NCBI GenBank assembly: GCA_963705725.1
Contig: CAVPKM010000007.1
Location: forward strand, 1 to 64,000
Reading direction: 5' to 3'
From: an uncultured Gammaproteobacteria bacterium
GTDB taxonomy: Bacteria; Pseudomonadota; Gammaproteobacteria; UBA6002
Length of the DNA: 64,000 nt
Shown: piece by piece, positions 24,393 through 60,867 of the stretch
Layout of the letters: each line of letters starts with the position of its first letter
Position numbering within the stretch: position 1 is the first letter of the stretch
Notes under the pieces: generated by a model
What the model was told of the DNA's origin: nothing
Database searches by the model: none
The model's input: only the letters and a program-made list of their open reading frames with translations
Program-made: the position numbers and the translations under genes

Positions 24393-24424
24393 GTTTTTAG
24401 CACCTTAGTTAAAGGAAAAAATGA

Positions 24425-25654: not shown

Positions 25655-25662
25655 GGCTCTCT

Positions 25663-45174: not shown

Positions 45175-45807
45175 ATGAGCGCTCCTTTTTTAGAAGTGAT
45201 TAATGTCACCTGTACCCGTCATTTTCAACCATTATTCATGCCCATTTCCTTTAGGCTATATCCAGGTGAAGCATTACATATTTGTGGGGAAAATGGTGTG
45301 GGTAAAAGTACTTTTTTACGTACACTCTCGGGACTTTATACGCAATATGTAGGAAAAATTTTTTGGCAAGAGATGGCGATTGAAGAAGCAGCACATCAAA
45401 AAAAAATTTTTTATTTAGGTCATAAAAACACGATTAAATTAAACTTAACAGTTATCGAAAATCTTAGTCTATCTGCCTCATTGCAAAAAAAAGTCACAAA
45501 GAGAAAAGTGATCAGTACGCTCGATCAAATGGGTTTAACACATAAACAGCTAACCTTAGCAAGTATGCTATCTGCCGGACAAAAACAGCGATTAGCGCTT
45601 GCCAAGTTGTTGCTGACAAAAGCAAAGTTTTGGATTTTAGATGAACCATTTGTTTCTCTCGATCAAGCAGGGATAGCATGCATTCGGCAGATATTAAATT
45701 CCCATCTTGCAGCGGGTGGAATTTGTCTATTTACCTGTCACCAGGTAACGGATGAATTTAGTTATCCTTATCTACAGTTAATAACTCAACAAAGTCGTGA
45801 GTGGTAG
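45175..45807 (+). CDS. ccmA: Cytochrome c biogenesis ATPase
   Basis: GENGVGKST, YLGH, LSAGQKQR, WILDEPF. Confidence 0.92.
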   Translation: MSAPFLEVINVTCTRHFQPLFMPISFRLYPGEALHICGENGVGKSTFLRTLSGLYTQYVGKIFWQEMAIEEAAHQKKIFYLGHKNTIKLNLTVIENLSLSASLQKKVTKRKVISTLDQMGLTHKQLTLASMLSAGQKQRLALAKLLLTKAKFWILDEPFVSLDQAGIACIRQILNSHLAAGGICLFTCHQVTDEFSYPYLQLITQQSREW

Positions 45808-45810
45808 CGC

Positions 45811-46476
45811 GTGGTTTCATTTTTTATCACAATAAAAAGAGAGATAACTATTGCATTAAGACGAAAAATTGACTACCTCAATCCGCTAGGTTTTTTTCTT
45901 TTAATTATTTTGCTTTTCCCCTTGGCGATTACTTCAGATATAAAAATGCTGGCACTAATTGGTCCTGGGGTAATTTGGATAGGCTTGTTATTTGCCAATT
46001 TATTATCGGTTGAAAATCTTTTTAGCGTAGATTTTGAAGATGGTACTTTAGAGCAGATGTGGCTTAATTCTAATTCATTTATATTAGTGATTTTAGGGAA
46101 ATTAATAGTCTATTGGATATTGACTGCCTTCCCGCTAATTGGGATAAGTGTCTTGGCCGGAATCCTCTATGAGCTAAATATTAAAATTATCTACTTATTA
46201 TTATCAAGTCTGCTGTTAGGATCACCGGTACTTGTCCTATTATCAGCGCTAGGGTCTGCGTTAACCTTGGGGCTTAGAAATAGAGGGTTAGTGCTTATTT
46301 TATTAGTTATCCCACTTTTTATTCCGATTTTAATATTTGGGGCAGGCGCAGTAAATCATGCTGCGCAAGCTATGGCGTTTGAAAGTCAACTATATTTTCT
46401 AGGCGCATTATTAATTTTGGCTCTAACCTTTCTTCCGCTGGCCATTACGTCGGCATTAAAAATCAGTTTAGAGTGA
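45811..46476 (+). CDS. ccmB: Heme exporter protein B
   Basis: GPGVIW, DFEDGTLEQ, PLFIPILIFG. Confidence 0.93.
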   Translation: MVSFFITIKREITIALRRKIDYLNPLGFFLLIILLFPLAITSDIKMLALIGPGVIWIGLLFANLLSVENLFSVDFEDGTLEQMWLNSNSFILVILGKLIVYWILTAFPLIGISVLAGILYELNIKIIYLLLSSLLLGSPVLVLLSALGSALTLGLRNRGLVLILLVIPLFIPILIFGAGAVNHAAQAMAFESQLYFLGALLILALTFLPLAITSALKISLE

Positions 46477-46491
46477 AAGGTCACTACTCGT

Positions 46492-46543
46492 CCCAGGAAG
46501 GAAACGGTGCGTTGAACAGACTCTTACCCTGTGAGCAGTCACA
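46492..46543 (+). repeat. Dispersed intergenic repeat, copy 3
   Basis: CCCAGGAAGGAAACGGTGCGTTGAACAGACTCTTACCCTGTGAGCAGTCACA. Confidence 0.85.
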
Positions 46544-46735
46544 ATGAAAGAATGAAATTCGGAAAGGTTTGTAAGCTAGACTAGCAAACTGATGTAAGTA
46601 ACTTCACTGGTATCCGCTGTAATTAATTGTAAATTAAGAAAAATTTATAACTCGCGCCTTTTTAATCAATGCATTTTTCCAAGCTATTTTACACTCCTTA
46701 ACTATAATTACGCCATTAAATTTAGGGGAAGCAAT

Positions 46736-48010
46736 ATGGCGACATACAGCGTATATGATAATATTTTGATTAAATTAGAAAATGTGTTTATGAAAGTAGA
46801 GATGGATGTGGATAAGGAACAGTCAGAGCTATTATCAGAACACTTGAGGTTAAATTTTCAACTATCTGATTTAAAAAGCAAAATTGATATCTTAAATTCA
46901 TTGAAGCGCAGTTATGATCTTCACTCTGAAGATAGTGGTGAAATTGAAAAACTGCGTAAAAATATATTTAAAGCTTTATGTGATAAACAGTTGCAACTGC
47001 GCTTTATTCAAGAAAAAGAATTGCTTCTAACCTATTATTCACGGTCACAGTTGTTACAAGATTTGCCGACTGTTATTCAAATAAACCGAGAATTTCGATT
47101 AAGAAAAAGTTTGCTAGAAATTGAGTTATTAGCAAAATTTTTGGCAGATGATAAACGTTTTGCTGAATTTTATCATGAACTGGAAAGGGCAAATGAAATA
47201 TTTGATTTAGCGGTTGAATCCGGGGCAAATGATAAATTAGAAAATGCCCTCTCGCTATTCCAACGTTTTTTTGAAAAAGTCTGTCACTTTTTTAATTTAG
47301 AGTCCTCCTTAGTGGAGGAATTTAAACAGTTTAAAACTCAGATCTCTTTGCAAGCAAATTCAGTTTTAGGATTAACTGCTAAAGATTTGGACAGTCTGGA
47401 AGCTTTTTCTTATGTTTATCAAGATATCGCAAATAAACGAATCAGCTTGGAACTTGAAACAGATAAATTATTTTATCAATACAGCATGTTTCAAAATGGT
47501 AAAAGCATTATTCAAGCGGAGATAAAAAATACGCATGGAGAGCTTGAAAGTATTTTATTCAAAGAATATGCGATTAAGCAAAAAATGAAAGAGCTTAAGC
47601 AGTATAAAATAGAACTAAATCATCAAAAAGAAGATTTCATGAAAGATCCTACTGTCGATGGCTATGCCGAGGCCATGCGCCAACTGGAGCAGGTTGAAAC
47701 GCGTTTCAGAAGACTGATGATGCACAAAAACTTTGAAAAACCTTCGCTAGTATCAAGATTTTTTGCAGTGAATAGAACGAAAAAAATTAAAAAAAATGAA
47801 AGAACTTATTATAACAAAAATCTCTTCCAAATACTGCATAACAGCCGCGTGACCACTCAAGATAAAATGATTATCTTGAGACTTTCAAAACCCTCTAAAG
47901 TGATTAATACCTCAACGGGTAAGCTTTTTTATCAACGCACGAACAAGTTAAGATCGCTAAAAAGCTTAGAACAAACTATTTCTAGCCTTCAATCAAAAAA
48001 TTTACATTAG
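46736..48010 (+). CDS. Hypothetical coiled-coil protein, effector-like
   Basis: 424-aa L/K/E-rich helical ORF, AGGGG RBS, own terminator; no family recognised. Confidence 0.7.
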   Translation: MATYSVYDNILIKLENVFMKVEMDVDKEQSELLSEHLRLNFQLSDLKSKIDILNSLKRSYDLHSEDSGEIEKLRKNIFKALCDKQLQLRFIQEKELLLTYYSRSQLLQDLPTVIQINREFRLRKSLLEIELLAKFLADDKRFAEFYHELERANEIFDLAVESGANDKLENALSLFQRFFEKVCHFFNLESSLVEEFKQFKTQISLQANSVLGLTAKDLDSLEAFSYVYQDIANKRISLELETDKLFYQYSMFQNGKSIIQAEIKNTHGELESILFKEYAIKQKMKELKQYKIELNHQKEDFMKDPTVDGYAEAMRQLEQVETRFRRLMMHKNFEKPSLVSRFFAVNRTKKIKKNERTYYNKNLFQILHNSRVTTQDKMIILRLSKPSKVINTSTGKLFYQRTNKLRSLKSLEQTISSLQSKNLH

Positions 48011-48018
48011 CCAATAAG

Positions 48019-48040
48019 GCGGTAAATGAAAATTTACCGC
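48019..48040. terminator. Hairpin between convergent genes
   Basis: GCGGTAAAT-GAAA-ATTTACCGC. Confidence 0.75.
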
Positions 48041-48045
48041 TGAGC

Positions 48046-48198
48046 CTAAATCCTTCCTGATAAGAGAAGTATCAATAATATAATAAAAATAACTCCTAAA
48101 ATACCAGTCGGATAATAACCCCAACCTCGACTATGAGGCCAAGCAGGAAAGGCGCCTATTGCTAATATAATTAGAATAATCAATAATATAGTAATCAT
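48046..48198 (-). CDS. DUF3309 family small membrane protein (50 aa, missed by the ORF track)
   Basis: MITILLIILIILAIGAFPAWPHSRGWGYYPTGILGVIFIILLILLLSGRI; signature GAxPxWPHSRxWGYYP; GGAG RBS. Confidence 0.9.
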   Translation of the reverse strand: MITILLIILIILAIGAFPAWPHSRGWGYYPTGILGVIFIILLILLLSGRI

Positions 48199-48259
48199 AT
48201 TTAATGCTCCTATTTTAAAAAAATTATAGTACTTTTTATCTAGTATTATTAGTTTTTTT
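48135..48259 (+). repeat. Direct repeat A (5' part and upstream region of the DUF3309 gene)
   Basis: Aligns along its length with 55823..55945; its first 20 bp match 54106..54125 at 18/20. Confidence 0.9.
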
Positions 48260-48260
48260 A

Positions 48261-49358
48261 TTAAGAAGCCGCAAATCTAGCAACCCTATCAAGCTGCGCA
48301 ACAACCTTGTTTCCCATCTCACAGGTGGATAACAACATTCCCTCAGCAGTCATCATATCTTTTGTTCTAAATCCTTCATCCAAAATAGTCGTCACTGCCG
48401 TTTGAATCATTTGCGCTTCTTGATCCAGTTTAAACGAGTATTTGAACATCATGGCGACACTTAATATGGCAGCCAGTGGATTGGCGATATTTAGTCCTGC
48501 AATATCAGGAGCACTGCCGTGGATCGGTTCGTACAAGGAGTAATGCTCGCCGAAAGAAGCCGATGGCAGCATGCCGAGTGATCCGGTCAACATTGATGCT
48601 TCATCTGATAAAATATCACCGAACAAATTTGCCGTAAGCATGACATCAAATTGTTTTGGATTACGGATCAACTGCATGGCCGCATTATCCACATACATAT
48701 TTGAAAGACTGATATCTGGATAGTCATGATCTCGTATCGCTTGCACCGTATTTCGCCACAACATCGAGGTTTCCAGTACGTTCGCTTTATCAACCGAGCA
48801 CACCTGATTATTCCGAAGTCTCGCCAATTCAAAGGCAACACGGGCTATTCGCTCAATTTCAGATTTCGAATAGCGCATGGTGTTAATACCAACCTCTTGG
48901 CCGTCAACAAGGCTAATACCGCGCGGTTCACCAAAATACACATCTCCGGTCAACTCGCGAACAATCATTAAATCCAGACCATTAATACACGCTGATTTTA
49001 ATGGCGATGATTCTGCCAGTGCTTGAAAAACAATGACAGGTCTTAAATTGGCAAAAAGACCCAATCCCTGACGGATACCCAGCAATCCCTTCTCGGGTTT
49101 ATGTGTATTTTCAACATGATCCCATTTCGGCCCGCCAACGGCACCCAACAAAATGCTATCCGATTTTTTGGCAGTTGCCATGGTCTCTTTATCTAACGGT
49201 TCGCCGCTATGATCAATCGATGCTCCACCGATTAAGCCATGAATTAAATTAAAGTGGTGCGCTGAATTTTGGTTAAACCACTGCAAAACCTTAACACCTT
49301 CTGCAGTCACTTCCGGGCCAATGCCATCACCGGGTAAAACCAGAATGGTTTTATTCAT
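48261..49358 (-). CDS. leuB: 3-isopropylmalate dehydrogenase
   Basis: LPGDGIGPEV, GAVGGPKW, LFANLRP, SVDKANVL, NLFGDILSDEA, YEPIHGSAPDIAG. Confidence 0.97.
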   Translation of the reverse strand: MNKTILVLPGDGIGPEVTAEGVKVLQWFNQNSAHHFNLIHGLIGGASIDHSGEPLDKETMATAKKSDSILLGAVGGPKWDHVENTHKPEKGLLGIRQGLGLFANLRPVIVFQALAESSPLKSACINGLDLMIVRELTGDVYFGEPRGISLVDGQEVGINTMRYSKSEIERIARVAFELARLRNNQVCSVDKANVLETSMLWRNTVQAIRDHDYPDISLSNMYVDNAAMQLIRNPKQFDVMLTANLFGDILSDEASMLTGSLGMLPSASFGEHYSLYEPIHGSAPDIAGLNIANPLAAILSVAMMFKYSFKLDQEAQMIQTAVTTILDEGFRTKDMMTAEGMLLSTCEMGNKVVAQLDRVARFAAS

Positions 49359-49965
49359 GAATAACTCCTTCAAACAGCCAGGGTTGCGCTATTTTTTGTT
49401 GGTTTTCAAACACCGATATCACCTCTTCATAGGCCAATGTTTCGCCAATTTCATCCAATCCCTTGAGCAAGGTTTCCCGGCGCCAGGCATCAATACAAAA
49501 AGGTATTTCCAGTGTATCAACACGGATGATTTGAGATTCCAAATCGACTGTCACCAGGTTATTGTTTCGCTCAACAAGCCGTTGGATGTGCGCTTTTGGC
49601 AGGACAACAGGCAGCAAGCCGTTTTTAAAACAATTACTATAAAATATATCAGCAAAGCTTGGGGCTATGATCACCTGAATTCCGAAATCAAGTAAAGACC
49701 ACACAGCATGCTCGCGACTTGAGCCACAGCCAAAATTTTCCTCAGCCAACAAAATCCTCGTCTGTTGGAAGTTTGGCTGATTCAAAATGAAATCGCGTTT
49801 TGGCTGATTCGCTTCATCGTAACGCATTTCAGCAAATAACCAAGTTCCCAATCCCGTGCGTTTTATCGTTTTAAGGTATTGCTTGGGTATAATCATATCG
49901 GTATCAATATTTGCAACGGGCAAATAAGCCATAACACTTGTGATTGTTTTAAATGCTTGCATCAT
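49351..49965 (-). CDS. leuD: 3-isopropylmalate dehydratase small subunit
   Basis: [38 protein letters not shown]. Confidence 0.97.
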
Positions 49966-51368
49966 CGACCTCCTTTTATCGTTCTGACATCGGTTAACTT
50001 TCCTGTAATTGCCGCGGCGGCGGCCATTGCTGGACTCATCAAATGCGTACGACCCCCGCGTCCTTGACGACCTTCAAAATTACGATTGGACGTTGATGCG
50101 CAACGCTCCCCTGGGTTTAAGCGGTCTGCATTCATGGCTAAACACATGGAACAACCAGGCTCTCGCCAATCAAAACCTGCGGCAATAAAAATTTTATCCA
50201 GCCCTTCTGCTTCGGCTTGCTCTTTCACAAGTCCTGAGCCAGGTACAACCATGGCATCAACCCTTTCGGCAACGGTGTGGCCTTGAATAACCAGGGCTGC
50301 CGCACGCAAATCCTCGATACGCGCATTGGTGCAGGAGCCGATAAATACCTTGTTTATTTTAATAGCTTGCAAAGGCATGCCAGGCGTCAAGCCCATGTAA
50401 TCTAGGGCACGCACCATGGAATCTCGTCTGATGGGATCAGATTCTTTCGATGGGTAGGGCACATGGCCATCAATTGGCAATGCTGTTTCAGGACTGGTTC
50501 CCCACGTTACATAAGGGGTAAGCATATCGGCTTGCAGCGAGATGTCTTTATCATATTTCGCATCAATATCTGCATGGAGAGTTCGCCAGAAATCAGTAGC
50601 TTTATCCCACAATACGCCTTGAGGCGAATAAGGTTTACCACGCAAGTAATCACAAGTTACCTGATCCGGGGCTATCAAACCGGCTCGTGCTCCGGCTTCT
50701 ATGGCCATATTACAAATGGTCATTCTGGCTTCCATTGACAGTGCCTTGATTGCAGAACCCGTGAATTCAATGACATGCCCGGTGCCACCTGCCGTCCCGA
50801 TCTTTGCGATGATCGCCAGAATGATATCTTTTGCCGTCACACCAAAAGGTATATTTCCCTCAACACAGACGCGCATGTTTTTTGATTTTTTTAATACCAG
50901 GGTTTGTGTTGCAAAAACATGCTCTACTTCGCTTGTTCCAATACCAAATGCCAAAGCACCAAAGGCACCGTGCGTTGAAGTATGGCTATCACCGCACACA
51001 ATAGTGGTACCTGGCAATGTAAAACCCTGCTCTGGCCCAATGATATGAACAATCCCTTGTCGTTTATCCAAAAGCTCAATGTAGTGGATCCCGTGTTGGT
51101 TACAATTGTCTTGCAACAGGCTAACTTGTACCCGAGACTCATCATCGATTATGCCCATGCGGCGATTGTGAGTAGGTACATTGTGGTCGCTAACAGCTAA
51201 AATGGTCTCCGGGCGCCGAATTTTTCGACCAGCAACGGCCAAGCCTTCAAACGCTTGTGGGCTGGTGACTTCATGAATCAAGTGTCTGTCAATATAAATA
51301 ATCGACGTGCAATCAGGTTTATCGCACACTTGATGTTGCTCCCAAATCTTGTCATATAACGTTTTCAT
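49962..51368 (-). CDS. leuC: 3-isopropylmalate dehydratase large subunit
   Basis: [58 protein letters not shown]. Confidence 0.97.
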
Positions 51369-53418
51369 CGTCACTCCCATTTTCCCTAACCAAATGTTCA
51401 TAGGCTTGAATAATGATTTTGGTTATCTTTCCTATCTCAAAACATCGATCGCCAATCTGTGAAACTGGTGTAACTTCAACCGCACTTCCCGTAATGAATA
51501 CCTCATTCGCATCCAGCACTTCATCAGGATATATATGACGTTCAATAACAGGGATATGATAGCATCGCGCAATCGCGATAACTGTCTGTCGCGTAATGCC
51601 ATTCAAAAAACAATCAGCAATGGGCGTGTGAATTACGCCGTTCTTAACCATAAAGAAATTAGCCCCCGTGCATTCAGCAACGTAGCCGCGATAATCCAGC
51701 ATCAAGGCGTCATGAAAACCGGCCTGTTCGGCTTTGTTCTTGCTCAAAGAACCAATCATATACAGCCCAGCTGCCTTTGCCGTGACCGGCGCCGTTGAAG
51801 GAGAGGGACGGGTCCAGTCGGACCACATTAGTTTCAATCCATGTTTCATGCTATTTTCATCGGAAAAATAGGATGTCCATTGCCAAGCTGCAATCGCCAC
51901 ATGGACGTTACACGAATGAGATGCAACACTCATGGTTTCCTCACCGCACCAGGCAATCGGTCGAATGTAAGCATCCTGCAAGTTATTTTTACGAATTATT
52001 TCTTCCGTAATGGCATTTAATTCAGCAACGGAATAAGGAATGTTAAATCCCAACTCATTGGCTGAATGATGCAAGCGTTCATTATGCTGATTCAACTTGA
52101 AGACCTTACCATTGTATGCGCGTGCACCTTCAAAAACCGCGCTAGCATAATGCAACCCATGAGTCAAAACAGAAACCTGTGCATCATTCCACGGGATGAA
52201 TTCACCGTCCATCCAGATCACGCCTTTTTGCTGATGAGTGATACTTTTAACCGGTGAGGTTTGTCCATCAATCAAAGCCATAATGTCAGCATCTGAAATA
52301 TCTTTCTGGGCATCGCCCAATGCTTTGAATTGTTTAAACAGCTTACTAAAAGCCTCGTCTTCAACATTGATTTTCAAGGTCGTTAATTTATTCCGAAATG
52401 CAGCGCGTCCTGAATGTTTGCCCATGCTCAATGTAGATTGCGTGATGCCAACGGATTCGGGCGTCATGATTTCATACGTTTCACGACACTTCAGCATGCC
52501 ATCCTGGTGAATACCAGATTCATGCGCAAATGCATTTGCACCGACAATAGCCTTGTTTTTTTGCACCACAAACCCACTCGCCGCTGAAACCAGTTTGGAA
52601 ATTTCAGCGATGTAGGTTGGATCAATGTTTATCGTGAAAGGAAACTGATCCTGTCTGGTTTTAATGGCCATGACAATTTCTTCCAGCGCAGCATTCCCTG
52701 CGCGTTCTCCAATGCCATTAATAGTGCATTCAATTTGCCGGGCACCCGCACTGATTGCAGCCAGTGAATTGGCAACAGCCATCCCCAGATCATTATGACA
52801 ATGGACAGACAGAATGGCTTTATCGATATTTGGCACCTTATTTTTGATTACTTTGATCAAATCACTGTATTCAATTGGAGTAGAATATCCAACCGTATCT
52901 GGAATATTGATGGTTCTTGCCCCAGCCTGAATGGCAATTTCAACAGCGCGCGTTAGAAAATCGATGTTTGACCGCGTTGCATCCATTGCAGACCACTCAA
53001 CGTCATCACAATAATGTCGTGCTGCACGAACTGATGTCTGAATTGCGTCCAATGCCTCATCATGGGTCATTCTGAACTGATGTTTCAAATGCATATCGGA
53101 TGTGGAAATGAACGTATGAATTCTCGGCCGCGCAGCTGATTTAACAGCGTGACCAGCAGCTTCAATATCCGCAATTTTTGCCCTTGCCAAGCTACTCACC
53201 GTTGCATTTTTTACCATCTTGCAAATCTGTTCAATGCATTGAAAATCACCCGTTGATGCGGCAGCAAACCCAGCTTCAATCACATCGACACCCATGCAAT
53301 CCAATGCACTAGCAATTTCAATTTTCTGACTCATCGTCATCGTGGCGCCAGGAGCTTGTTCTCCATCCCTCAATGTTGTATCCAGTATCATAATTTTATT
53401 TTGTGTATTCTGTTTCAT
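51352..53418 (-). CDS. leuA: Fusion of 2-isopropylmalate synthase (no C-terminal regulatory domain) and branched-chain aminotransferase (LeuA-IlvE)
   Basis: [41 protein letters not shown], then in frame [28 protein letters not shown] (PLP Lys), LNGITR, EVFITGS; GAGG before ATG 53418. Confidence 0.9.
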
Positions 53419-53597
53419 GCTATTTACCTCTTTTCGAAGATAAAAAACCATTTTAACAAATTATGATTGAAAGATGGTTGCGATCATTGCTTGAAAATGG
53501 GGGATAAAGGAAATATAATTTCAATTATAATTGTTTATTTGAAATTAAATTCTAAATAACTGATTTTTCAAAGAAAGGGCAGGGGTGGCATTTTTTT

Positions 53598-54080
53598 ATG
53601 GATCGCATTGACAAAAAAATTTTAGAGCTATTGCAAGCAAATGGTCGCATCAGTAATCAGGAATTAGCAGATCAGGTGGCACTATCACCCTCACCCTGTT
53701 TACGTCGTGTTAAACAACTGGAAGAAGACGGTTACATCCGTGGCTATGTTGCATTACTCGACCCCGCTAAAATAGGGTTGCAATTGACAATTATAGTCTC
53801 GGTGACCCTGGTTAACCATGATCCAAAAGTAATGAAGCACTTTGAGGCTACAGTCGCCGCCTTCCCAGAAGTAATACAATGCTATCTCATTACAGGACAA
53901 TCTGCCGATTACCTTATAAAGGTGGTAGTCGCTAATCTGAACGAATATCAATCTTTTTTATTAAAAAAGCTAACAATTATTGATGGTGTCAATCAGGTGC
54001 ACTCCAGTTTTGTTTTGCAACGCATCGTTGATAGAACATCACTCCCACTGGATCATTTGAATGAGCAGCCTGGTAACTAA
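53598..54080 (+). CDS. Lrp/AsnC family transcriptional regulator
   Basis: DRIDKKILELLQANGRISNQELADQVALSPSPCLRRVKQLEEDGYI; divergent from the leu operon. Confidence 0.95.
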   Translation: MDRIDKKILELLQANGRISNQELADQVALSPSPCLRRVKQLEEDGYIRGYVALLDPAKIGLQLTIIVSVTLVNHDPKVMKHFEATVAAFPEVIQCYLITGQSADYLIKVVVANLNEYQSFLLKKLTIIDGVNQVHSSFVLQRIVDRTSLPLDHLNEQPGN

Positions 54081-54084
54081 CGAA

Positions 54085-54125
54085 TGGTTTTTTAGGACCA
54101 TAGCGGAGGCTAAGCGGGAAAGGCG
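54085..54125 (+). repeat. Direct repeat B (left boundary of hipBA)
   Basis: 39/41 identical to 55802..55842, including the exact 29-mer ACCATAGCGGAGGCTAAGCGGGAAAGGCG. Confidence 0.92.
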
Positions 54126-54148
54126 AAAAAACTTTAATGAGAAGGTGC

Positions 54149-55477
54149 TTATGCTTCAAGCTTTTTCTTTACTTCGAGCATGCCTTCAAAAATCGGTTGG
54201 TAAATTTGTGTAGGAAAGGTACTTGGTAGTTGTGATTCTACCTTACTAATTACTTGATCAACCCTTGCGAGCAGGCTATCGATGAGAACTGAGGCAGTAG
54301 CCATTGAATAATTTGCAGCTTTTGCTGTCATTAAGAAATGACGGCGTTGTAGAGTATGCCAAGAATAATGGTTATTATTTCCTTTTAGTGCCATTGCCAT
54401 TTTTAATTTTTGTTTCGCTAGTTGCTTCTTTGCAACTAATGGGTAGGCAGATATGATGTCGTATAAGGGGGTGAGGCGGTATCTCCCGCCAGCTTCTAAA
54501 AAAATGCTGAAATTTTTTGCGTGACCATCAATTGCCCCGAGTAACCAAAATAATATTTGAGATTTAAAAAATATTTCACGATCATCATTGGAGTTATCTG
54601 ACCCTAGCAAGGTATCCATTATTTGAGATATTCCCGGACCTCCTTCAGATTGATATTTTATGCTAGGAGAGATGCCCTGCGTTTGGCACATGTCCTCTTG
54701 AGGTAATCGCATTATCCAGCTTTTATCGCTTGATAATCCGCGGTCAAATCGTTCGACGATTAATACTTTTACCTCTTCAAATTTACGTATACTAGTTTTT
54801 GCAACGGGCAAATCAAATGCTTCTGCAATTTTAGAGCATAACCACTCATTTTCACAGCTATCGCCTAGGTCCATTTGCTGATGCTGAAGATATCCAATTG
54901 GCAATTTAAAGATATGTGTTGTTGGTGTGGTATTAAGGGGCCGACACCATTCTTTTTTATAGAAAAGAAATGCTGTTTTTTCTTGTGCTCCCGCAATTGA
55001 AATACGAAATGCGTCATTTTTACCCTTCATACCAAGAGGGTAGAGCTGGTGATTTCTAAGTAATGCGGCTATTTGCGCTTCTGTCAATACTTCATATTGT
55101 ATTTCTCTTTTAAAGCTTTGAACTTCTTCCGTAACCATTTGAATAGCGCCTACACAATCTTTCCCTATGCTTGCTAATAAATCAAAAGGATGTGTCGTTG
55201 CCGTTTGAAATTCAGCCTGTATTCTTGCTCGTACTTGTGGATTTTCAGGAAGTAAATTATCAAAAAAATTATAAACAATATCCCCTGAAAAAACCTTGTT
55301 ACTGAGTGGGAGAGATAAGGATATAGAGCGCGCCGCTGATGTTTCCAGCCATTCTTGAGTATATTGATATATCAGTGCGCCTTTTGAAGTTTTTGTTAGC
55401 CTGCCGATTAATTTCCCATTCATTAATATATAAAGTATTCTGGTCTTATTTTTATTTGCTACCACTCTTCTTTCCAT
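54149..55477 (-). CDS. hipA: HipA family Ser/Thr kinase toxin
   Basis: SLSLPL..FFDNLLPE, ISIAGAQEKTA, THIFKLP, ENEW, DGHAKNFS, LTPLYD; start may be GTG 55465. Confidence 0.95.
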   Translation of the reverse strand: MERRVVANKNKTRILYILMNGKLIGRLTKTSKGALIYQYTQEWLETSAARSISLSLPLSNKVFSGDIVYNFFDNLLPENPQVRARIQAEFQTATTHPFDLLASIGKDCVGAIQMVTEEVQSFKREIQYEVLTEAQIAALLRNHQLYPLGMKGKNDAFRISIAGAQEKTAFLFYKKEWCRPLNTTPTTHIFKLPIGYLQHQQMDLGDSCENEWLCSKIAEAFDLPVAKTSIRKFEEVKVLIVERFDRGLSSDKSWIMRLPQEDMCQTQGISPSIKYQSEGGPGISQIMDTLLGSDNSNDDREIFFKSQILFWLLGAIDGHAKNFSIFLEAGGRYRLTPLYDIISAYPLVAKKQLAKQKLKMAMALKGNNNHYSWHTLQRRHFLMTAKAANYSMATASVLIDSLLARVDQVISKVESQLPSTFPTQIYQPIFEGMLEVKKKLEA

Positions 55478-55716
55478 TCTGTTTTATCATGCCCCTCTTT
55501 TGCTTCTTTTGGTAAGATTTGAATGTCAAGATCTAAAGCGGAAAGTATTCTAAAAAAAGTAGCCAGCTCTGTCCTTTGTGGTTTTACTTCAAACTGAGAA
55601 ACAGTTTGCTGCTTTAGGCCAACTCTTTGGCCTAATTCTGTCTGGCTTAACTTAAGTTTTTTACGTCTGTCCGTTAAATAAACGGCCAAGTCATTAGGTG
55701 AATGAACAAACATCAT
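55459..55716 (-). CDS. hipB: HipB-like HTH antitoxin
   Basis: SPNDLAVYLTDRRKKLKLSQTELGQRVGLKQQTVSQFE; ends in Trp like E. coli HipB; overlaps hipA. Confidence 0.92.
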   Translation of the reverse strand: MMFVHSPNDLAVYLTDRRKKLKLSQTELGQRVGLKQQTVSQFEVKPQRTELATFFRILSALDLDIQILPKEAKEGHDKTEWKEEW

Positions 55717-55730
55717 TTCTCTCCATAAAT

Positions 55731-55803
55731 TACCCTTTATAGCATGTATTTTTAATTTTACCCCTTATAAAGGGTAATTTCAACTTACCCTTTATAAGGG
55801 GTG
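55731..55803. promoter_or_regulatory. Three candidate HipB operators TACCC-N8-GGGTA
   Basis: 55731 TACCCtttatagcATGTA; 55759 TACCCcttataaaGGGTA; 55786 TACCCtttataagGGGTG; same geometry as E. coli TATCC-N8-GGATA. Confidence 0.8.
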
Positions 55804-55945
55804 GTTTTTTGGTACCATAGCGGAGGCTAAGCGGGAAAGGCGCTATTGCTAATATAATTAGAATAATCAATAATATAGCAATCATATTAAACGCGCATTT
55901 TTTATAAAATAATAGTATTTTTCATCTCGTATTATTAGTTTTTTT
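55802..55945 (+). repeat. Direct repeat C (right boundary of the island)
   Basis: First 41 bp match repeat B; 55823..55945 match repeat A. Confidence 0.9.
55823..55885 (-). pseudogene. Truncated, frameshifted second copy of the DUF3309 gene
   Basis: MIAILLIILIILAI, then a 1-base deletion (GGCGC vs GGCGCC); RBS degenerated. Confidence 0.8.
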
Positions 55946-56011
55946 GTTTATTTCTGTTAGCAGAACCCTAGCTGACGAGTTGTGAGGTTTTTTAATGAAG
56001 AGTGAGCACAG

Positions 56012-56740
56012 ATGTTGACCTTGCTGTATAAATTCGCTGCACCCAAGTACTTTTTTACTGCTTCGGCTAAGTTATTGCCTCTATTAATAGTCATGTGCTG
56101 TATAACACTTGGATATGGTTTAGTCGGAGGATTATATCTCGCTCCGGCGGACTATCAGCAAGGTGAAGTATTTCGAATTATCTATGTTCATGTGCCAAGT
56201 GCCGTACTATCATTAGCGATTTATCTGATAATGGCAATTTTTGCAGGAATTGGCCTGATTTGGCGCATTAAAATTGCAAAGATCATTTTTACAGAAAGTG
56301 CACCAATTGGGATATCTTTTACTTTTTTGGCGCTGTTAACTGGTGCGTTATGGGGGCAGCCAACATGGGGGACGTGGTGGTTGTGGGATGCGCGGCTCAC
56401 ATCAGAATTAATTCTGCTTTTACTGTATTTTGCCATTCTTACGCTTCAATCAGCAATTGAGGATAAAGATAAAGCGATAAAAGCAAGTAGTTTGTTAGCG
56501 TTGGTGGGAGTGGTAGATCTGCCGATTATCCATTATTCAGTATATTGGTGGAACACCCTTCATCAGAAAGCCACCATTTTGAAACTGCATGCACCTTCTA
56601 TGGATTTGTCAATGCTATATCCATTATTATCAATGATATTGGCTTTTTTCTTATTTTATATTATTGTGTTGCTACTTCGTTCACGCAATGCGCTCCTTGT
56701 GCATGAAAAACAAGCGCAATGGATTAAACAAACGTTATAA
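56012..56740 (+). CDS. ccmC: Heme exporter protein C
   Basis: RIIYVHVP, WGQPTWGTWWLWDARLTS, IIHYSVYWWNTLHQ. Confidence 0.96.
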   Translation: MLTLLYKFAAPKYFFTASAKLLPLLIVMCCITLGYGLVGGLYLAPADYQQGEVFRIIYVHVPSAVLSLAIYLIMAIFAGIGLIWRIKIAKIIFTESAPIGISFTFLALLTGALWGQPTWGTWWLWDARLTSELILLLLYFAILTLQSAIEDKDKAIKASSLLALVGVVDLPIIHYSVYWWNTLHQKATILKLHAPSMDLSMLYPLLSMILAFFLFYIIVLLLRSRNALLVHEKQAQWIKQTL

Positions 56741-56743
56741 ATA

Positions 56744-56896
56744 ATGAAAACAATAGTTTCTTTTCTATCAATGAATGGTTATGGGTTTTTTGTCTGGACA
56801 TCTTATTCCCTCATGGCTGTTATTTTAATTTTTAATTTAACTGTGCCGTTATATAAATTTAAACAATTAAAAAACGAACTACGAGGCAAGTGTTGA
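56744..56896 (+). CDS. ccmD: Heme exporter protein D (50 aa, missed by the ORF track)
   Basis: MKTIVSFLSMNGYGFFVWTSYSLMAVILIFNLTVPLYKFKQLKNELRGKC; MxGYxxFVWxSY motif; between ccmC and ccmE. Confidence 0.88.
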   Translation: MKTIVSFLSMNGYGFFVWTSYSLMAVILIFNLTVPLYKFKQLKNELRGKC

Positions 56897-57291
56897 ATAT
56901 AAAGCGAAGGAGGCGCTTAATATTAATCGTCTTGATGGTTCTAGGAGTAGGTTGTTCTACCAGCTTAGTCTTAGTCGCCTTGAATAAAAATATTAATTTA
57001 TATTATACTCCAAGCCAAATAAATCAAAAAAACCTTCCTAAAACGCGTTTGCGCCTAGGTGGATTAGTGAAAAATGGCAGTATCCATAGAGCAGGTGACA
57101 CGCTCAAAATTAATTTTATTGTTACTGATAATAAGCATGAAATTTCTGTCGTCTATGTGGGTATCCTTCCTGCTTTATTTCGAGAAGGACAGGGTGTGGT
57201 GGTCGAGGGTGAGTTCCTCAATCAGCACTTTATTGCCAAGCAAGTGTTGGCAAAACATGATGAAAACTATCGGCCGCCAGGCTTAAAATAG
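56890..57291 (+). CDS. ccmE: Cytochrome c maturation heme chaperone
   Basis: RLGGLV, LPALFREGQGVVVEG, LAKHDENY. Confidence 0.95.
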   Translation: MLNIKRRRRLILIVLMVLGVGCSTSLVLVALNKNINLYYTPSQINQKNLPKTRLRLGGLVKNGSIHRAGDTLKINFIVTDNKHEISVVYVGILPALFREGQGVVVEGEFLNQHFIAKQVLAKHDENYRPPGLK

Positions 57292-57301
57292 TGATGTAAA
57301 T

Positions 57302-59203
57302 ATGATTCCAGAAATAGGCCATTTTTGTTTAATCCTTGCTCTTTGCTTGGCAGTGATTCAAGCAATTTTGTCGATGACGGGAACAATTAAATCTCAGCCA
57401 TTGTGGGTTAAAATTGGCAAATCAGCCGCATTTGGCCAACTCTTTTTTTTAATTTCCTGCTTTTTTCTTCTCACTTATTCCTTCATAACCAATGATTTTT
57501 CAGTTGCTTATGTGGCACAAAATTCAAATAGCGCTCTGCCTTGGTTTTATCGGCTTTGTGCTAGCTGGGGAGCGCATGAGGGTTCTTTGCTGCTTTGGGT
57601 ATTGGTTCTTGCAGGCTGGACTGTCTCGTTTTGCCTGTTTGGATCAAAAAAAATAGATCAATTAAGCGGGTTAGTCGTTTCCATTCTAGGATTCGTCAGT
57701 ATAGGATTTTTACTTTTTTTACTGTTGACTTCCAACCCATTTCTTCGCTTATTACCAGATGCGCCGATTAATGGCAGAGATTTGAATCCACTTTTACAAG
57801 ATCCTGGGTTAATTATTCATCCTCCTATTTTATATATGGGATATGTAGGATTTGCCATTGCTTTTGCCTTTGCGCTTTCTGCCTTAATTAGCGGCAAGTT
57901 TGATGCAAACTGGGCAAGACAGGCAAGACCTTGGACATTAGTGGCTTGGAGTTTCTTAACATTGGGCATCACGCTTGGCAGTTGGTGGGCCTATCGTGTC
58001 CTTGGTTGGGGCGGGTGGTGGTTTTGGGACCCGGTCGAAAATGCTTCCTTCTTACCTTGGTTATCTGGCACTGCCTTGTTTCATTCCTTGCTCGTTGTCG
58101 AAAAACGAGAGACCTTTAAGGCCTGGGCAATCTTGTTAGCGGTGTGCACTTTTTCTCTTAGCCTAATTGGAACATTTTTAGTTCGATCCGGTATATTAGT
58201 TTCAGTTCATGCCTTTGCAGTCGACCCCACACGTGGTACCTTTGTGCTTTATTTCTTAGCAATTGTCATCGGGGGTTCCTTGCTTTTGTATGCCTTGCGT
58301 GGAAATAAAATTATTAATAGCGGGATATTTGGATGGTGGTCGAAAGAAACATTCTTATTGACGAATAATATTTTATTTACCGTTGCCATGTTAACAGTGC
58401 TTCTTGGCACAATTTATCCACTTATTATTGATGGTCTGGGTCTTGGGAAGTTATCAGTCGGGCCGCCTTATTTTAATACAGTTTTTGTTCCACTTATGAT
58501 ACCTGTTTTGTTTTTGATGGCATTTGCACCTGCAATTCATTGGGAAACGGCCAAACCAATACTGATCATTAAGCGGTTTAAATATTCACTGTTGGTTTCA
58601 ATCCTCCTTTCTATTAGCTTGCCGGTGATTATCACAAGGAAAATTCATTTAACGCTTGCGATCGGTCTTTTTTTAGCATTTTGGGTAGTGTTAGCGTCCC
58701 TGCAAAATCAAATACATGCCAACAAAAAAATAATGACACGTCGTTATGGAATGTTATTGGCGCATCTGGGTTTTGCGGTTTGTACGATAGGCGTCATCCT
58801 AACTTCTGCATATAGTGATCAACGTGATTTAAGCATGCAGTTAAAAGATTCGACAAGAATCGGTCCTTATCTGATTTCCTTCAATAGAATGGAAGAATAC
58901 CGTGGACCTAATTATTCTGCCTATCGGGGAGAATTTATAGCAACGCAGGGACATCAAATCTATCGGTTATTGCCGGAATTGCGGTTATTTCACGCACAAC
59001 AAATAAGTCTGCCAAAGGCGGCTATTCACAAACAATTATTTCATGATCTTTATATTTCATTAGGAGAACCTCTGCAAAATCAAGCTTGGTCAATGCGAAT
59101 TTATTATAAGCCATTTGTTCGCTGGATTTGGGTAGGAGGGATAATGATGATGTTGGGCGGAGTCGTGAGTGCATGGCAACTACGTAAAGTAAAAGGTCCA
59201 TGA
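57302..59203 (+). CDS. ccmF: Heme lyase
   Basis: WGAHEGSLLLW, LNPLLQDPG..HPP, WGGWWFWDPVENAS, SVHAFA. Confidence 0.97.
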   Translation: MIPEIGHFCLILALCLAVIQAILSMTGTIKSQPLWVKIGKSAAFGQLFFLISCFFLLTYSFITNDFSVAYVAQNSNSALPWFYRLCASWGAHEGSLLLWVLVLAGWTVSFCLFGSKKIDQLSGLVVSILGFVSIGFLLFLLLTSNPFLRLLPDAPINGRDLNPLLQDPGLIIHPPILYMGYVGFAIAFAFALSALISGKFDANWARQARPWTLVAWSFLTLGITLGSWWAYRVLGWGGWWFWDPVENASFLPWLSGTALFHSLLVVEKRETFKAWAILLAVCTFSLSLIGTFLVRSGILVSVHAFAVDPTRGTFVLYFLAIVIGGSLLLYALRGNKIINSGIFGWWSKETFLLTNNILFTVAMLTVLLGTIYPLIIDGLGLGKLSVGPPYFNTVFVPLMIPVLFLMAFAPAIHWETAKPILIIKRFKYSLLVSILLSISLPVIITRKIHLTLAIGLFLAFWVVLASLQNQIHANKKIMTRRYGMLLAHLGFAVCTIGVILTSAYSDQRDLSMQLKDSTRIGPYLISFNRMEEYRGPNYSAYRGEFIATQGHQIYRLLPELRLFHAQQISLPKAAIHKQLFHDLYISLGEPLQNQAWSMRIYYKPFVRWIWVGGIMMMLGGVVSAWQLRKVKGP

Positions 59204-59745
59204 AAAAATTACAATACCTCTTACCCTTCATTTTTTTTGTTGGATTAATTATTTTATTCAAATATGGATTAATGCAAGATCCTAATTATTTACCTTCCGT
59301 AATGATTGGGAAACCGGTTCCTGCTTTCAGTGCAGAAACATTGGATCAAAAAAAAACGCAAATAACTGAAAATATATTTAAAGGAGACATCACTTTATTA
59401 AATGTTTGGGCTTCTTGGTGTCAAAATTGTCAAATGGAGCATCCTCTTCTCATTGATCTTGCTAAAAGTGGCCGGCTCAAATTATACAGTTTGAATTATA
59501 AAGATAAGCGTATTGCAGCAACTTCTTTCTTGCTCGAAATGGGCAATCCCTATCAAGCAACGATTTTTGATCCGGAAGCTAAGGTCTCCATGCAATTAGG
59601 TGTTTATGGTACTCCCGAAACATTTTTAATTGATAAACAAGGGATGATTCGCTATCGCTATGTCGGTCCGCTTACCCTTGCTAAAATAGAAAATGATTTG
59701 TTGCCGCGTATTAAACAACTTGAAGAGGAAGGCAGAAAAAAATGA
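59200..59745 (+). CDS. ccmG: Thiol:disulfide interchange protein DsbE/CcmG
   Basis: LLNVWASWCQNC, GVYGTPETFLID. Confidence 0.94.
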   Translation: MKKLQYLLPFIFFVGLIILFKYGLMQDPNYLPSVMIGKPVPAFSAETLDQKKTQITENIFKGDITLLNVWASWCQNCQMEHPLLIDLAKSGRLKLYSLNYKDKRIAATSFLLEMGNPYQATIFDPEAKVSMQLGVYGTPETFLIDKQGMIRYRYVGPLTLAKIENDLLPRIKQLEEEGRKK

Positions 59746-60164
59746 ATCTAAATAAAAATCTAATTAAAAGATTATTACTTTTATTTTATTTCTTTTTTAT
59801 TGCGCCTTCCAGTTTAGCGGCTGTTCAATATCCTTATTATTTTACTTCTCCAGTTCAGCAGCAACGCTTCGAAAAACTTATTAGTGAATTACGATGTTTA
59901 GTTTGTCAAAATCAAAGCTTGGCAGAATCAAATGCACCACTTGCCCTTGATCTGAAAAGAGAGGTCTACCACAAAGTAGTGGCGGGTGCTTCTACGGCAG
60001 AAATAAAAACTTATTTAATTTCTCGCTATGGTGAATACATTTTATTCAAGCCTAATATAAATACAAATACCTACTTACTTTGGTTTGGGCCATTAATTTT
60101 TTTGTTGGGTGCTTCATCCATTATGTTTTTAAGTATCTATCGTCAAAGTAAAATAACTAATTAG
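59742..60164 (+). CDS. ccmH: Cytochrome c biogenesis protein
   Basis: LRCLVCQNQSLAESNAPLA, RYGEYILFKP. Confidence 0.94.
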   Translation: MNLNKNLIKRLLLLFYFFFIAPSSLAAVQYPYYFTSPVQQQRFEKLISELRCLVCQNQSLAESNAPLALDLKREVYHKVVAGASTAEIKTYLISRYGEYILFKPNINTNTYLLWFGPLIFLLGASSIMFLSIYRQSKITN

Positions 60165-60171
60165 GAAGGAC

Positions 60172-60867
60172 ATGCTATTATTTTGGGCAACGCTTTTCAG
60201 TGTTTTGTTAATTAGTCTGGTTATTTTGTCGCAGCCTTTTTTCTATTCATTTAATCGCAACCAATTAATTAAACAAAAAAGTCATTTTTATTTGTTGGCA
60301 GGCATTATTTTGTTCATGTCTTTAGGTAGTGTTTCTTTATATCTTTATTTGGGAAAAAGCCAAGCGGTTATCGAAAAGCGAAATACCCTTAAACATGCAA
60401 ATGAAATAAAAGCAGAAATCAAAAAAATGGGGTCACGCCAAAATATTATTCATGCCTTAAAATCAAAATTATTACAGATGCCAGAAAATAAAGAAAATGC
60501 GCGAGGCTGGTTCATACTTGGAAAACTTTATTTCAATGAAAATAAAATTCAAGATTCGAATGCCTGCTTTCAGAAAGCAGCGAAACTCAATCCAAGTTCA
60601 GAATATCAACTGCAGTCAGTAATCGTGAAATTTTATTTGAATAAACACTTGGATAAAAATGATAAACAAACGATTACTCAATTATTACGACGCTCAGCAA
60701 ATGATCCTAATTTGCTTAATCTGTTAGCTTTAGATGCTTACCAAGATAAAAAATATCAAATAGCGATTCGGTATTGGGAGAGGCTGCTCATGTATTTTCC
60801 ACCTCAATCAGAAGATTTTAATCACTTAATGACCATGATTAAACAAGCCCAAAGAGAAACTTCTTAA
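60172..60867 (+). CDS. CcmI/CycH-like TPR protein
   Basis: Two N-terminal transmembrane segments, LYLYLG, GWFILGKLY, AIRYWERLL; follows ccmH. Confidence 0.8.
   Translation: MLLFWATLFSVLLISLVILSQPFFYSFNRNQLIKQKSHFYLLAGIILFMSLGSVSLYLYLGKSQAVIEKRNTLKHANEIKAEIKKMGSRQNIIHALKSKLLQMPENKENARGWFILGKLYFNENKIQDSNACFQKAAKLNPSSEYQLQSVIVKFYLNKHLDKNDKQTITQLLRRSANDPNLLNLLALDAYQDKKYQIAIRYWERLLMYFPPQSEDFNHLMTMIKQAQRETS

What the first reader, a model, noticed from the sequence alone, without database searches (positions are those of the whole stretch)
46477..56011. Island splitting the ccm operon, bounded by nested repeats derived from a tiny DUF3309 gene
Seen: ccmAB and ccmCDEFGH are separated by ~9.5 kb. 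A ~125-bp direct repeat (48135-48259 and 55823-55945) consists of the 5' part and upstream region of an unannotated 50-codon DUF3309 gene and brackets leuBDC-leuA/ilvE-lrp-hipAB. The left copy belongs to the intact gene; the right copy is a frameshifted stub. A third, short copy of the same core lies at 54085-54125. Known: one intact target gene plus a displaced partial duplicate is the footprint of site-specific integration. Inference: the DUF3309 gene is an integration hot spot used at least twice, collecting a metabolic cassette and a toxin-antitoxin module. No integrase or transposase is present, so the recombinase was lost or acts in trans.
Basis: partly seen in the sequence, partly recalled or inferred. 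Interest (0 to 1): 0.8.

Follow-up and report, generated by a model that had tools for sequence, protein, structure and literature searches.

The report
Two gene cassettes stacked at one repeat
An uncultured Legionella-like bacterium carries a borrowed leucine-synthesis cassette and a toxin-antitoxin pair, both without an integrase, stacked side by side at one short repeated sequence taken from a tiny membrane-protein gene; this looks like an ordinary decayed genomic islet.

Summary
The repeats are real. There is a 125-nt direct repeat (48135-48259 / 55823-55945, 88%). There is also a 41-nt junction repeat (54085-54125 / 55802-55842, 95%). All three copies share only a 20-nt core from the 5' part of a DUF3309 gene. 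The left copy is the intact gene. The right copy has lost its ribosome-binding site and carries a frameshift and a stop codon.

Comparison corrects the framing. The three closest relatives already have orf424 between ccmB and ccmC, so the variable slot is only orf424-ccmC (48011-56011).

The leuB-leuD-leuC-leuA::ilvE-lrp block is clearly foreign. Its GC3 is 0.38-0.43 against 0.31 for the backbone. LeuA-IlvE homologs reach 87-93% identity (some named Legionellaceae), while the backbone protein CcmF finds nothing above 69%. The block ends within 1-4 nt of the repeats.

The best reading is two integrase-less modules (leu-lrp 5,971 nt; hipBA 1,717 nt) laid down in tandem at one core, like decayed "cis-mobilizable" elements.

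This is unproven. I found no recombinase and no empty site, and DUF3309 is absent from this slot in 80 of 80 relatives. RecA-driven insertion fits equally well. The contig looks chimeric at about 9.18 kb. Interest is modest.

The parts
45175..46476 (+). ccmA (45175-45807) and ccmB (45811-46476), the left half of the ccm cluster
   Evidence: Pfam ABC_tran E 7e-30 and CcmB E 7e-55
46736..48010 (+). orf424, a lineage-specific gene of unknown function. It belongs to the backbone, not the island.
   Evidence: Homologs at 51-64% identity lie between ccmB and ccmC in L001 (192-aa short form), L002 and L003. The C-terminus is intact. No Pfam, NCBIfam or Atlas match.
48018..48041 (.). hairpin between the converging stops of orf424 and DUF3309, probably a two-way terminator
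   Evidence: RNA fold -14 kcal/mol, z = -3.4, 0 of 200 shuffles fold as well
48046..48198 (-). intact DUF3309 gene (50 codons)
   Evidence: PF11752 E 2.8e-22, positions 1-50 of 50. 2,152 family members found, the best at 80-82% identity. GC3 0.216.
48135..48259 (.). left copy of the 125-nt repeat: core 48135-48154 plus R 48155-48259 (first 21 codons, ribosome-binding site and upstream DNA of DUF3309). It ends 1 nt from the leuB stop codon.
48261..53451 (-). leuB (48261-49373), leuD (49351-49965), leuC (49962-51401) and the leuA::ilvE fusion (51352-53451)
   Evidence: NCBIfam leuB, leuD, leuC, 2-isopropylmalate synthase plus branched-chain aminotransferase. Pfam HMGL-like + HCS_D2 + Aminotran_4, with no LeuA_dimer domain. 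GC3 0.41-0.43 against backbone 0.312 +/- 0.036. Homologs at 87-93% identity.
53598..54080 (+). lrp-family regulator, divergent from the leu operon. A promoter-like site lies at 53491-53519.
   Evidence: Pfam HTH_24 + AsnC_trans_reg. NCBIfam Lrp E 6e-39, below the family cut-off. Promoter scan 11 of 12. GC3 0.379.
54085..54125 (.). third (internal) copy: E 54085-54105 plus core 54106-54125. It starts 4 nt after the lrp stop and ends 23 nt before the hipA stop.
   Evidence: 95% over 41 nt to 55802-55842, E 1.3e-13; 29-nt exact block. No significant RNA structure (z 0.2-0.3).
54149..55716 (-). hipA (54149-55477) and hipB (55459-55716), a type II toxin-antitoxin pair with overlapping genes
   Evidence: Pfam Couple_hipA + HipA_C; HTH_3. 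NCBIfam HipB E 9e-18, below the family cut-off. About 50% identical HipA genes on 1,722 plasmid records. GC3 0.29-0.31.
55755..55802 (-). hipBA promoter-like site (-35 at 55783-55778, -10 at 55760-55755) with two ACCC-N8-GGGT palindromes (55760-55775, 55787-55802). Together they form inverted repeat I1.
   Evidence: The operator role is inferred by analogy with HipB operators (recalled).
55802..55945 (.). right copy: E' 55802-55822, core 55823-55842 and R' 55843-55945. This is the dead DUF3309 stub plus its upstream DNA, 66 nt before ccmC.
   Evidence: The 51-codon ORF 55730-55885 has no Pfam hit.
56012..60867 (+). ccmC, ccmD, ccmE, ccmF, ccmG, ccmH and a TPR CcmH/I-type gene, the right half of the ccm cluster
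   Evidence: Pfam

Best explanation
Between orf424 and ccmC lies a slot whose content differs between lineages. In this genome the slot once held only a small DUF3309 gene, reading away from ccmC. Two compact modules without an integrase were then inserted one after the other at the same 20-bp core in the gene's first 21 codons.

Module 1 is 5,971 nt from core to core. It carries leuB-leuD-leuC-leuA::ilvE and a divergent lrp. Its joint reads E-core-R, so it brings its own copy of the DUF3309 start and upstream DNA. This keeps the target gene whole on the left and leaves the old 5' end as a stub on the right.

Module 2 is 1,717 nt. It carries hipBA with its own promoter and operators, and its joint reads E'-core.

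The most likely mechanism is conservative site-specific recombination by a recombinase encoded elsewhere or since lost. That would make this a tandem accretion of decayed, 'cis-mobilizable'-type elements.

What is shown: the repeats, their sharp common boundaries, the foreign origin of leu-lrp, and the variable slot. What is inferred: the circular intermediates, the crossover point (right half of the core) and the recombinase.

Likely cargo functions are also inferred. The leu module could turn 2-oxoisovalerate, and hence valine through the IlvE half, into leucine under Lrp control. hipBA could stabilise the segment.
For: (1) Three copies share one 20-nt core with sharp edges. The core occurs 3 times against 0.02 expected.
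(2) The structure unwinds in two steps, of 1,717 nt and then 5,971 nt, to an intact gene next to ccmC.
(3) E + core is identical at core positions 1-20 in the third and right copies. The left core differs at 2 positions that keep the Trp codon. This fits element-derived left halves and a host-derived left core.
(4) The foreign block is flush with the repeats: the leuB stop is 1 nt from the repeat end and the lrp stop is 4 nt from E.
(5) GC3 is 0.379-0.431 for leuB through lrp, against 0.312 +/- 0.036 (maximum 0.381, n=39) for the backbone.
(6) LeuA-IlvE has independent homologs at 93, 92, 90, 89, 88 and 87% identity; named ones are Legionellaceae or Legionella. CcmF in the same 5.8-billion-protein set has a best non-self hit of 69%.
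(7) The closest relatives hold other cargo in the same slot: a 500-aa LRR protein in L002 and L003, and nothing in L001.
(8) The coding part of the repeat is better conserved than the upstream part (60 of 64 against 50 of 61). This is expected if the two copies diverged as working genes in different genomes.
(9) Tandem accretion of elements that kept their att sites but lost integration genes is a described process (PMC5704250, passages read).
Against: - No integrase, transposase or resolvase was found in 58 window ORFs.
- None was found in 119 ORFs upstream of ccmC from 34 relatives at E<=1e-8.
- 0 of 80 relatives have DUF3309 or the core near ccmC. The 'target gene' is therefore not shown to be ancestral here, and no empty site is documented.
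- The LRR cargo of L002 and L003 has no flanking direct repeats, so the slot also varies by other routes.
- hipBA has backbone-like GC3 of 0.29-0.31, so there is no independent sign that it is foreign.
- E-core has no significant fold, and I saw no clear dyad symmetry of the kind core-type recombinase sites usually show (by eye only).
- DUF3309 was not found on plasmids.
- The contig has a probable chimeric join at about 9.18 kb.
Confidence: 0.5

Rival explanations
1. The map is the same but no dedicated recombinase was involved. Circular or linear incoming DNA that already carried a DUF3309 5' fragment recombined with the resident gene by RecA-type homologous single crossover (Campbell-type insertion). 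The E-core duplication around hipBA arose the same way, or in the donor before transfer of the whole 7.7-kb composite.
For: Exact shared blocks of 36 nt (48156-48191 / 55843-55878) and 29 nt (54097-54125 / 55814-55842) exist. They are long enough in principle for homologous exchange (the minimum length is recalled, not tested). No recombinase gene was found anywhere in the window or in relatives' slots. The product topology is identical to that of the site-specific model.
Against: This model does not explain how the precise E|core junction arose in the first place, or why two unrelated cargoes both carry it. Identity of 88% over 125 nt, and a stretch of only 41 nt, are poor substrates. The sharp edges of the core on both sides in the third copy are more typical of an att core.
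Confidence: 0.25
2. There is no mobile-element logic. Two or more DUF3309 paralogs once lay here. Local duplication, illegitimate recombination and decay produced the stub and the 41-nt duplicate. The leu-lrp and hipBA genes arrived by unrelated events, such as transformation with flanking homology.
For: DUF3309 is a large family: 2,152 hits, in very diverse bacteria. The slot upstream of ccmC varies in many relatives without repeats or integrases. hipA also sits 1.5 kb upstream of ccmC in the distant relative L043 (54% identity).
Against: The third copy carries only 20 nt of DUF3309 plus the same 21-nt non-DUF3309 sequence as the right copy, so it is a copy of a junction and not a decayed paralog. 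The foreign block ends within 1-4 nt of the repeats. That coincidence would have to be chance.
Confidence: 0.15
3. Assembly artefact. A separate circular element, or DNA of another Legionellales strain that shares the short repeat, was threaded into this chromosome contig by the assembler.
For: The contig has an abrupt 67% to 38% GC switch inside a truncated gene at about 9,180. Two genes are split, gyrA and an acs-like gene. Both suggest an imperfect assembly. The leu block has much closer relatives elsewhere than the backbone has.
Against: Exact shared runs are only 36 and 29 nt, shorter than the usual final k-mers or any long read. Three separate joins would all have to be wrong. The left copy is a coherent intact gene, while the right copy carries decay mutations typical of a real, old duplicate.
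Confidence: 0.07

Closest known systems
CIMEs (cis-mobilizable elements) and tandem accretion of ICE/IME-derived islands, for example ICESt1-related elements of Streptococcus thermophilus (PMC5704250, passages read; the primary papers cited there were not read)
   Same: Adjacent modules are bounded by three direct att-like repeats (left, internal, right). No integration or transfer genes remain. One end regenerates the target gene and the other holds a displaced partial copy. A second element has inserted at an att site of the first.
   Different: No cognate ICE, IME or integrase is known here. The modules are very small (6.0 and 1.7 kb). The target is the 5' end and promoter of a tiny protein-coding gene rather than the 3' end of a tRNA or housekeeping gene. 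Mobility is untested.
Phage or island integration into protein-coding genes with a replacement segment, for example lambdoid phage 21 and e14 in icd (recalled; not checked in any call)
   Same: The element carries a diverged copy of the part of the target gene that it displaces, so the gene stays intact and a partial duplicate marks the far end.
   Different: In those cases the 3' end is replaced and an integrase is encoded next to attP. Here the 5' end and upstream region are replaced and no integrase is present.
Integron gene cassettes
   Same: Compact cargo units without a recombinase, stacked head to tail at one site, with toxin-antitoxin modules among the cargo.
   Different: There is no intI. 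There is no attC-like folded site (E-core folds no better than shuffles). The cargo includes a whole divergently regulated operon with its own promoters.
Leucine plasmids of Buchnera (pLeu)
   Same: A small self-contained leuABCD unit that moves or amplifies as a block. Buchnera plasmids gave 64 of 304 matching records in the plasmid search.
   Different: DNA identity is only 65-70%, which is ordinary leu-gene conservation. There is no repA here. leuA is fused to ilvE and an lrp gene is attached.

Membership tests
Site-specific integrative genomic island | Direct repeats (attL/attR) at both ends that share a core | tested here: met
   125-nt repeat at 88% and 41-nt repeat at 95%, with a common 20-nt core
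Site-specific integrative genomic island | Integrase or recombinase gene at one end | tested here: not met
   0 of 58 window ORFs match one. The slot is 92% coding with known genes.
Site-specific integrative genomic island | Foreign origin of the cargo (composition, phylogenetic discordance) | tested here: met
   Met for leuB through lrp: GC3 0.38-0.43 against 0.31; LeuA-IlvE 87-93% against CcmF <=69%. Not shown for hipBA.
Site-specific integrative genomic island | Presence/absence polymorphism with an identifiable empty target site | tested here: inconclusive
   The slot content differs in L001, L002 and L003. However, 0 of 80 relatives have DUF3309 or the core there, and the closest relative is only 67-70% identical in CcmC.
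CIME / tandem accretion | Internal att copy between two adjacent modules, with all integration and transfer genes missing | tested here: met
   The third copy 54085-54125 lies between leu-lrp and hipBA. No such genes were found.
CIME / tandem accretion | A cognate element in the same or related genomes whose integrase acts on the same att site | not testable with these tools
   Only 64 kb of the genome is held.
Integron cassette array | intI gene and attC sites with a conserved folded structure | tested here: not met
   No integrase was found. E-core regions fold no better than shuffles, z -0.6 to +0.7.
Composite transposon / IS-mediated insertion | Transposase, terminal inverted repeats and a short target duplication | tested here: not met
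   No transposase was found. The repeats are direct and 41-125 nt long. The only strong inverted repeat is the hipBA operator pair.
Xer-dependent element (IMEX / dif module) | Flanking dif-like 28-bp XerC/XerD sites | not tested
   No reference dif sequence was available from a tool. Nothing dif-like was evident by eye.
DUF3309 (PF11752) | Full-length match above the Pfam gathering score | tested here: met
   Left gene: 79 bits against a cut-off of 22.3, positions 1-50 of 50. The right stub has no match.
HipBA type II toxin-antitoxin | HipA N-terminal and C-terminal kinase domains, an upstream overlapping HTH antitoxin, and palindromic operators in the promoter | tested here: met
   Couple_hipA E 3e-26, HipA_C E 5e-50, HTH_3 E 6e-10, 19-nt gene overlap. 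Two ACCC-N8-GGGT palindromes flank a -35/-10 match. Activity was not tested.

The most novel reading that the evidence does not exclude
The conserved Ala-Phe-Pro-Ala-Trp-Pro coding core of DUF3309 genes may be the attachment site of an undescribed family of tiny, recombinase-less cassettes in Legionellales. These would be metabolic operons and toxin-antitoxin pairs of about 2-6 kb, each with a roughly 150-nt E-core joint, captured and stacked by a recombinase acting in trans. This would be an integron-like gene-capture platform that rebuilds the 5' end and promoter of its target gene. The leu-lrp cassette, with 87-93% relatives in Legionellaceae, would be one circulating member.
Probability: 0.12. 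Interest if true: 0.65.

Novelty: new member of a known kind. Interest (0 to 1): 0.35.

Why it matters
If the reading holds, amino-acid prototrophy genes move among intracellular Legionellales as small self-contained cassettes. These bacteria usually depend on host amino acids. It would also show that a tiny, often unannotated membrane-protein gene can serve as a landing pad.

In practice, this is a worked example of how nested repeats can order insertion events. It also cautions that 'operon split by an island' has to be checked against relatives. Here the split is older than the island.

The LeuA-IlvE fusion lacks the leucine-binding regulatory domain, and I found no paper describing it. It deserves a biochemical look in its own right.

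Tried and rejected
- Core in relatives. An exact search for the core in 80 relatives' loci gave 0 matches. A short-word blastn of the repeats, the hipBA operator region and the slot flanks against those loci gave only chance-level hits, E >= 0.03.
- DUF3309 in relatives. A phmmer run of DUF3309 against all six-frame ORFs of the loci gave nothing below E 0.6.
- Intergenic alignment. DNA next to orf424 and ccmC does not align between the window and L001-L003 beyond shuffle level, so the ancestral joint cannot be reconstructed.
- Plasmids. DUF3309 protein gave no match. The 8-kb slot gave only 65-70% leu-gene conservation, and no record covered 80% or more. LeuA-IlvE gave no fused form and at most 60% identity. 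HipA gave about 50% identity on many plasmids, including one Legionella adelaidensis plasmid at 49%.
- Phages. Only leu genes in mislabelled or host-derived records matched.
- RNA. Rfam and tRNA scans of the window found nothing. E-core is therefore not a tRNA-type target or a known RNA, and it has no significant fold.
- orf424. The protein Atlas gave no usable hit.
- Taxon names for the closest DUF3309 homologs. None is given by the sources. Matching contig lengths between DUF3309 and LeuA-IlvE hits found no shared contig among the rows listed. This is weak evidence because tiny ORFs are often not called.
- Literature. 'DUF3309' occurs in 2 papers, and going by their titles and abstract starts in the listing neither concerns integration. 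No paper holds Legionella + isopropylmalate synthase + aminotransferase + fusion. A broader Legionella/leucine/horizontal search listed nothing relevant.
- Composite transposon, integron and prophage readings were rejected for lack of their defining parts (see Membership tests).

Full report
OBSERVATION

ccmA and ccmB end at 46476 and ccmC starts at 56012.

Between them, in order, lie:
- orf424 (46736-48010, + strand);
- an intact 50-codon DUF3309 gene (48046-48198, - strand; PF11752 E 2.8e-22);
- leuB, leuD, leuC and a 699-codon leuA::ilvE fusion (all - strand);
- lrp (+ strand);
- hipA and hipB (- strand).

A 125-nt direct repeat joins 48135-48259 to 55823-55945 (88%, E 5e-28). A 41-nt repeat joins 54085-54125 to 55802-55842 (95%, E 1.3e-13). 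The only stretch common to all three is a 20-nt core, found 3 times against 0.02 expected by chance.

The left copy is the first 21 codons, ribosome-binding site and upstream DNA of the intact gene. The right copy has a 1-nt deletion, a TGG-to-TAG change and a destroyed ribosome-binding site.

The third copy is not simply a 'short copy of the gene'. It is 21 nt of unrelated sequence (E) plus the core, and the same E-core junction sits at the inner edge of the right copy.

No integrase, transposase or resolvase family matched in 58 window ORFs. The slot is 92% coding.

WHAT THE RELATIVES SAY

A CcmC-based scan of one genome per species returned 80 loci. The best were only 67-70% identical: uncultured Gammaproteobacteria and Coxiellaceae MAGs. 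Named Legionella species were at 51-53%. The organism is therefore an undescribed member of the Legionellales.

All three closest relatives (L001-L003) have galU-ccmA-ccmB-orf424 homolog-...-ccmC. The split of the ccm cluster, and orf424 itself, are thus older than the island. The orf424 C-terminus in the window is intact.

The stretch between orf424 and ccmC differs in each lineage:
- a 500-aa leucine-rich-repeat protein in L002 and L003;
- nothing in L001;
- the 8-kb segment here.

More widely:
- 45 of 80 loci have ccmB within 209 nt of ccmC;
- 9 have gaps of 483-5,979 nt;
- 26 show no co-oriented ccmB in the DNA held. Of these, 16 have at least 5 kb of upstream DNA and 10 have less, so those 10 are undetermined.

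The DNA upstream of ccmC in these loci carries LRR, U-box and ankyrin proteins, efflux genes, an AbiEii toxin and, in L043, a HipA 54% identical to this one. No recombinase was found in 119 ORFs at E<=1e-8.

None of the 80 loci holds a DUF3309 gene or the core. The LRR cargo of L002 and L003 has no flanking repeats.

THE CARGO IS FOREIGN, AND ITS EDGES MEET THE REPEATS

GC3 of 39 backbone genes is 0.312 +/- 0.036, with a maximum of 0.381. The values for the slot genes are:

| gene | GC3 |
|---|---|
| leuB | 0.426 |
| leuD | 0.415 |
| leuC | 0.431 |
| leuA::ilvE | 0.406 |
| lrp | 0.379 |
| hipA | 0.293 |
| hipB | 0.314 |
| DUF3309 | 0.216 |

In a set of 5.8 billion protein clusters, the fusion protein has relatives at 93, 92, 90, 89, 88 and 87% identity. 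Two of them are named Legionellaceae or Legionella, and named Legionella species lie at 69-79%. The window's own copy is a member of the 92% cluster, recognisable by its 157,567-nt contig.

The backbone protein CcmF, searched in the same set, finds itself and then nothing above 69%. A recent transfer of the leu block within the Legionellales is the plain reading.

The block's coding DNA sits flush with the repeats. The leuB stop codon is 1 nt from the end of the left repeat, and the lrp stop is 4 nt before E.

ANATOMY AND MECHANISM

Write B for the 3' part of DUF3309, R and R' for its 5' part plus upstream DNA, and H for the 23 nt before the hipA stop. The map is then:

B-core-R | leuB...lrp | E-core-H hipA hipB operators | E'-core-R' | ccmC

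Removing one core-to-core unit of 1,717 nt and then one of 5,971 nt (spacings) leaves B-core-R'. This is an intact gene whose upstream region faces ccmC.

Closed into a circle, each unit would have about 150 nt of non-coding DNA holding the joint.

The third and right cores are identical. The left core differs at two positions that preserve the Trp codon. This fits a host-derived left half of the left core, with crossovers in the right half.

The inverted repeat at 55760-55802 is two ACCC-N8-GGGT palindromes around a -35/-10 match for hipB. I read it as the hipBA operator region, by analogy with known HipB operators (recalled). E-core itself has no significant fold.

This is the pattern described for tandem accretion of elements that kept their att sites but lost their integration genes (CIMEs; PMC5704250, passages read).

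I put 0.5 on site-specific recombination by an enzyme acting in trans or since lost. I put 0.25 on RecA-type single crossovers through the 36-nt and 29-nt exact blocks. That model gives the same map but does not explain the origin of the shared E|core junction. I put 0.15 on local duplication and decay with unrelated insertions, and 0.07 on an assembly artefact.

CAUTIONS

- The window's first ~9,180 nt are 66-76% GC, and the switch to 38% falls inside a truncated gene.
- gyrA and an acs-like gene are each split into two ORFs. The contig is therefore not flawless, although three concordant joins with decay mutations are hard to produce by misassembly.
- The contexts of the close LeuA-IlvE homologs could not be fetched.
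- The rest of the genome was not available.

COMPARISON AND VERDICT

The segment works like a small, decayed integrative islet stacked in tandem. It meets the repeat, foreign-cargo and internal-att features of that kind. It fails the integrase feature, and the empty-site feature is inconclusive. It is not an integron array, a transposon or a prophage.

What is new is limited to three things:
- the target, which is the 5' end and promoter of a DUF3309 gene. The two papers that mention DUF3309 are not about integration, going by their titles and abstract starts in the listing;
- the very small size of the modules;
- the cargo, a self-contained leu cassette with a LeuA-IlvE fusion lacking the regulatory domain, for which I found no paper.

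I score interest at 0.35 and classify the finding as a new member of a known kind.

Noticed in passing
window 1-9180: This stretch is 66-76% GC against about 38% for the rest of the window. The switch is abrupt, at about 9,180, inside a truncated high-GC ORF. It is probably a chimeric join in the 157,567-nt source contig.
   Followed up: partly
window 34758-37327 and 29816-31739: gyrA is split into two ORFs (34758-35318 and 35339-37327). An acs-like AMP-binding gene is also split in two (31200-31739 and 29816-31324). These are either frameshift pseudogenes or indel errors of the assembly.
   Followed up: no
window 51352-53451 (-): LeuA is fused to IlvE, and the leucine-binding LeuA_dimer domain (PF08502) is missing. 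42 of the 120 listed homologs share this three-domain form, and 2 more also keep PF08502. Named examples are Legionella species. No paper was found. The enzyme may be insensitive to leucine feedback, and the cassette could convert valine to leucine (inference).
   Followed up: partly
window 46736-48010 (+); L001 9332-9910, L002 7069-8349, L003 3165-4445: orf424 is a conserved gene of unknown function lodged between ccmB and ccmC in this lineage only. L001 has a 192-aa short form. It has no Pfam, NCBIfam or Atlas match.
   Followed up: partly
L043 99-1409 (-); L021, L022, L052, L074, L075 upstream of ccmC: The DNA just upstream of ccmC in Legionellales relatives repeatedly carries effector-like genes (U-box, LRR, ankyrin) and toxin genes (HipA at 54% identity in L043; AbiEii in L075). 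No recombinase was found among them.
   Followed up: partly
L001 7279-7479, 8406-8434, 9037-9113 and 7536-7656 / 8590-8709: Short dispersed repeats resembling miniature inverted-repeat elements flank ccmB in the closest relative. They lie between ccmA and ccmB and again before the short orf424.
   Followed up: no
window 16508-18610 (+): A 700-aa protein with ankyrin and pentapeptide repeats. It resembles a eukaryote-like effector candidate, in keeping with an intracellular lifestyle.
   Followed up: no
window 22291-27099 (+): In the methylcitrate-cycle cluster prpB-prpC-prpD, ispG (24425-25654) sits between prpC and prpD.
   Followed up: no
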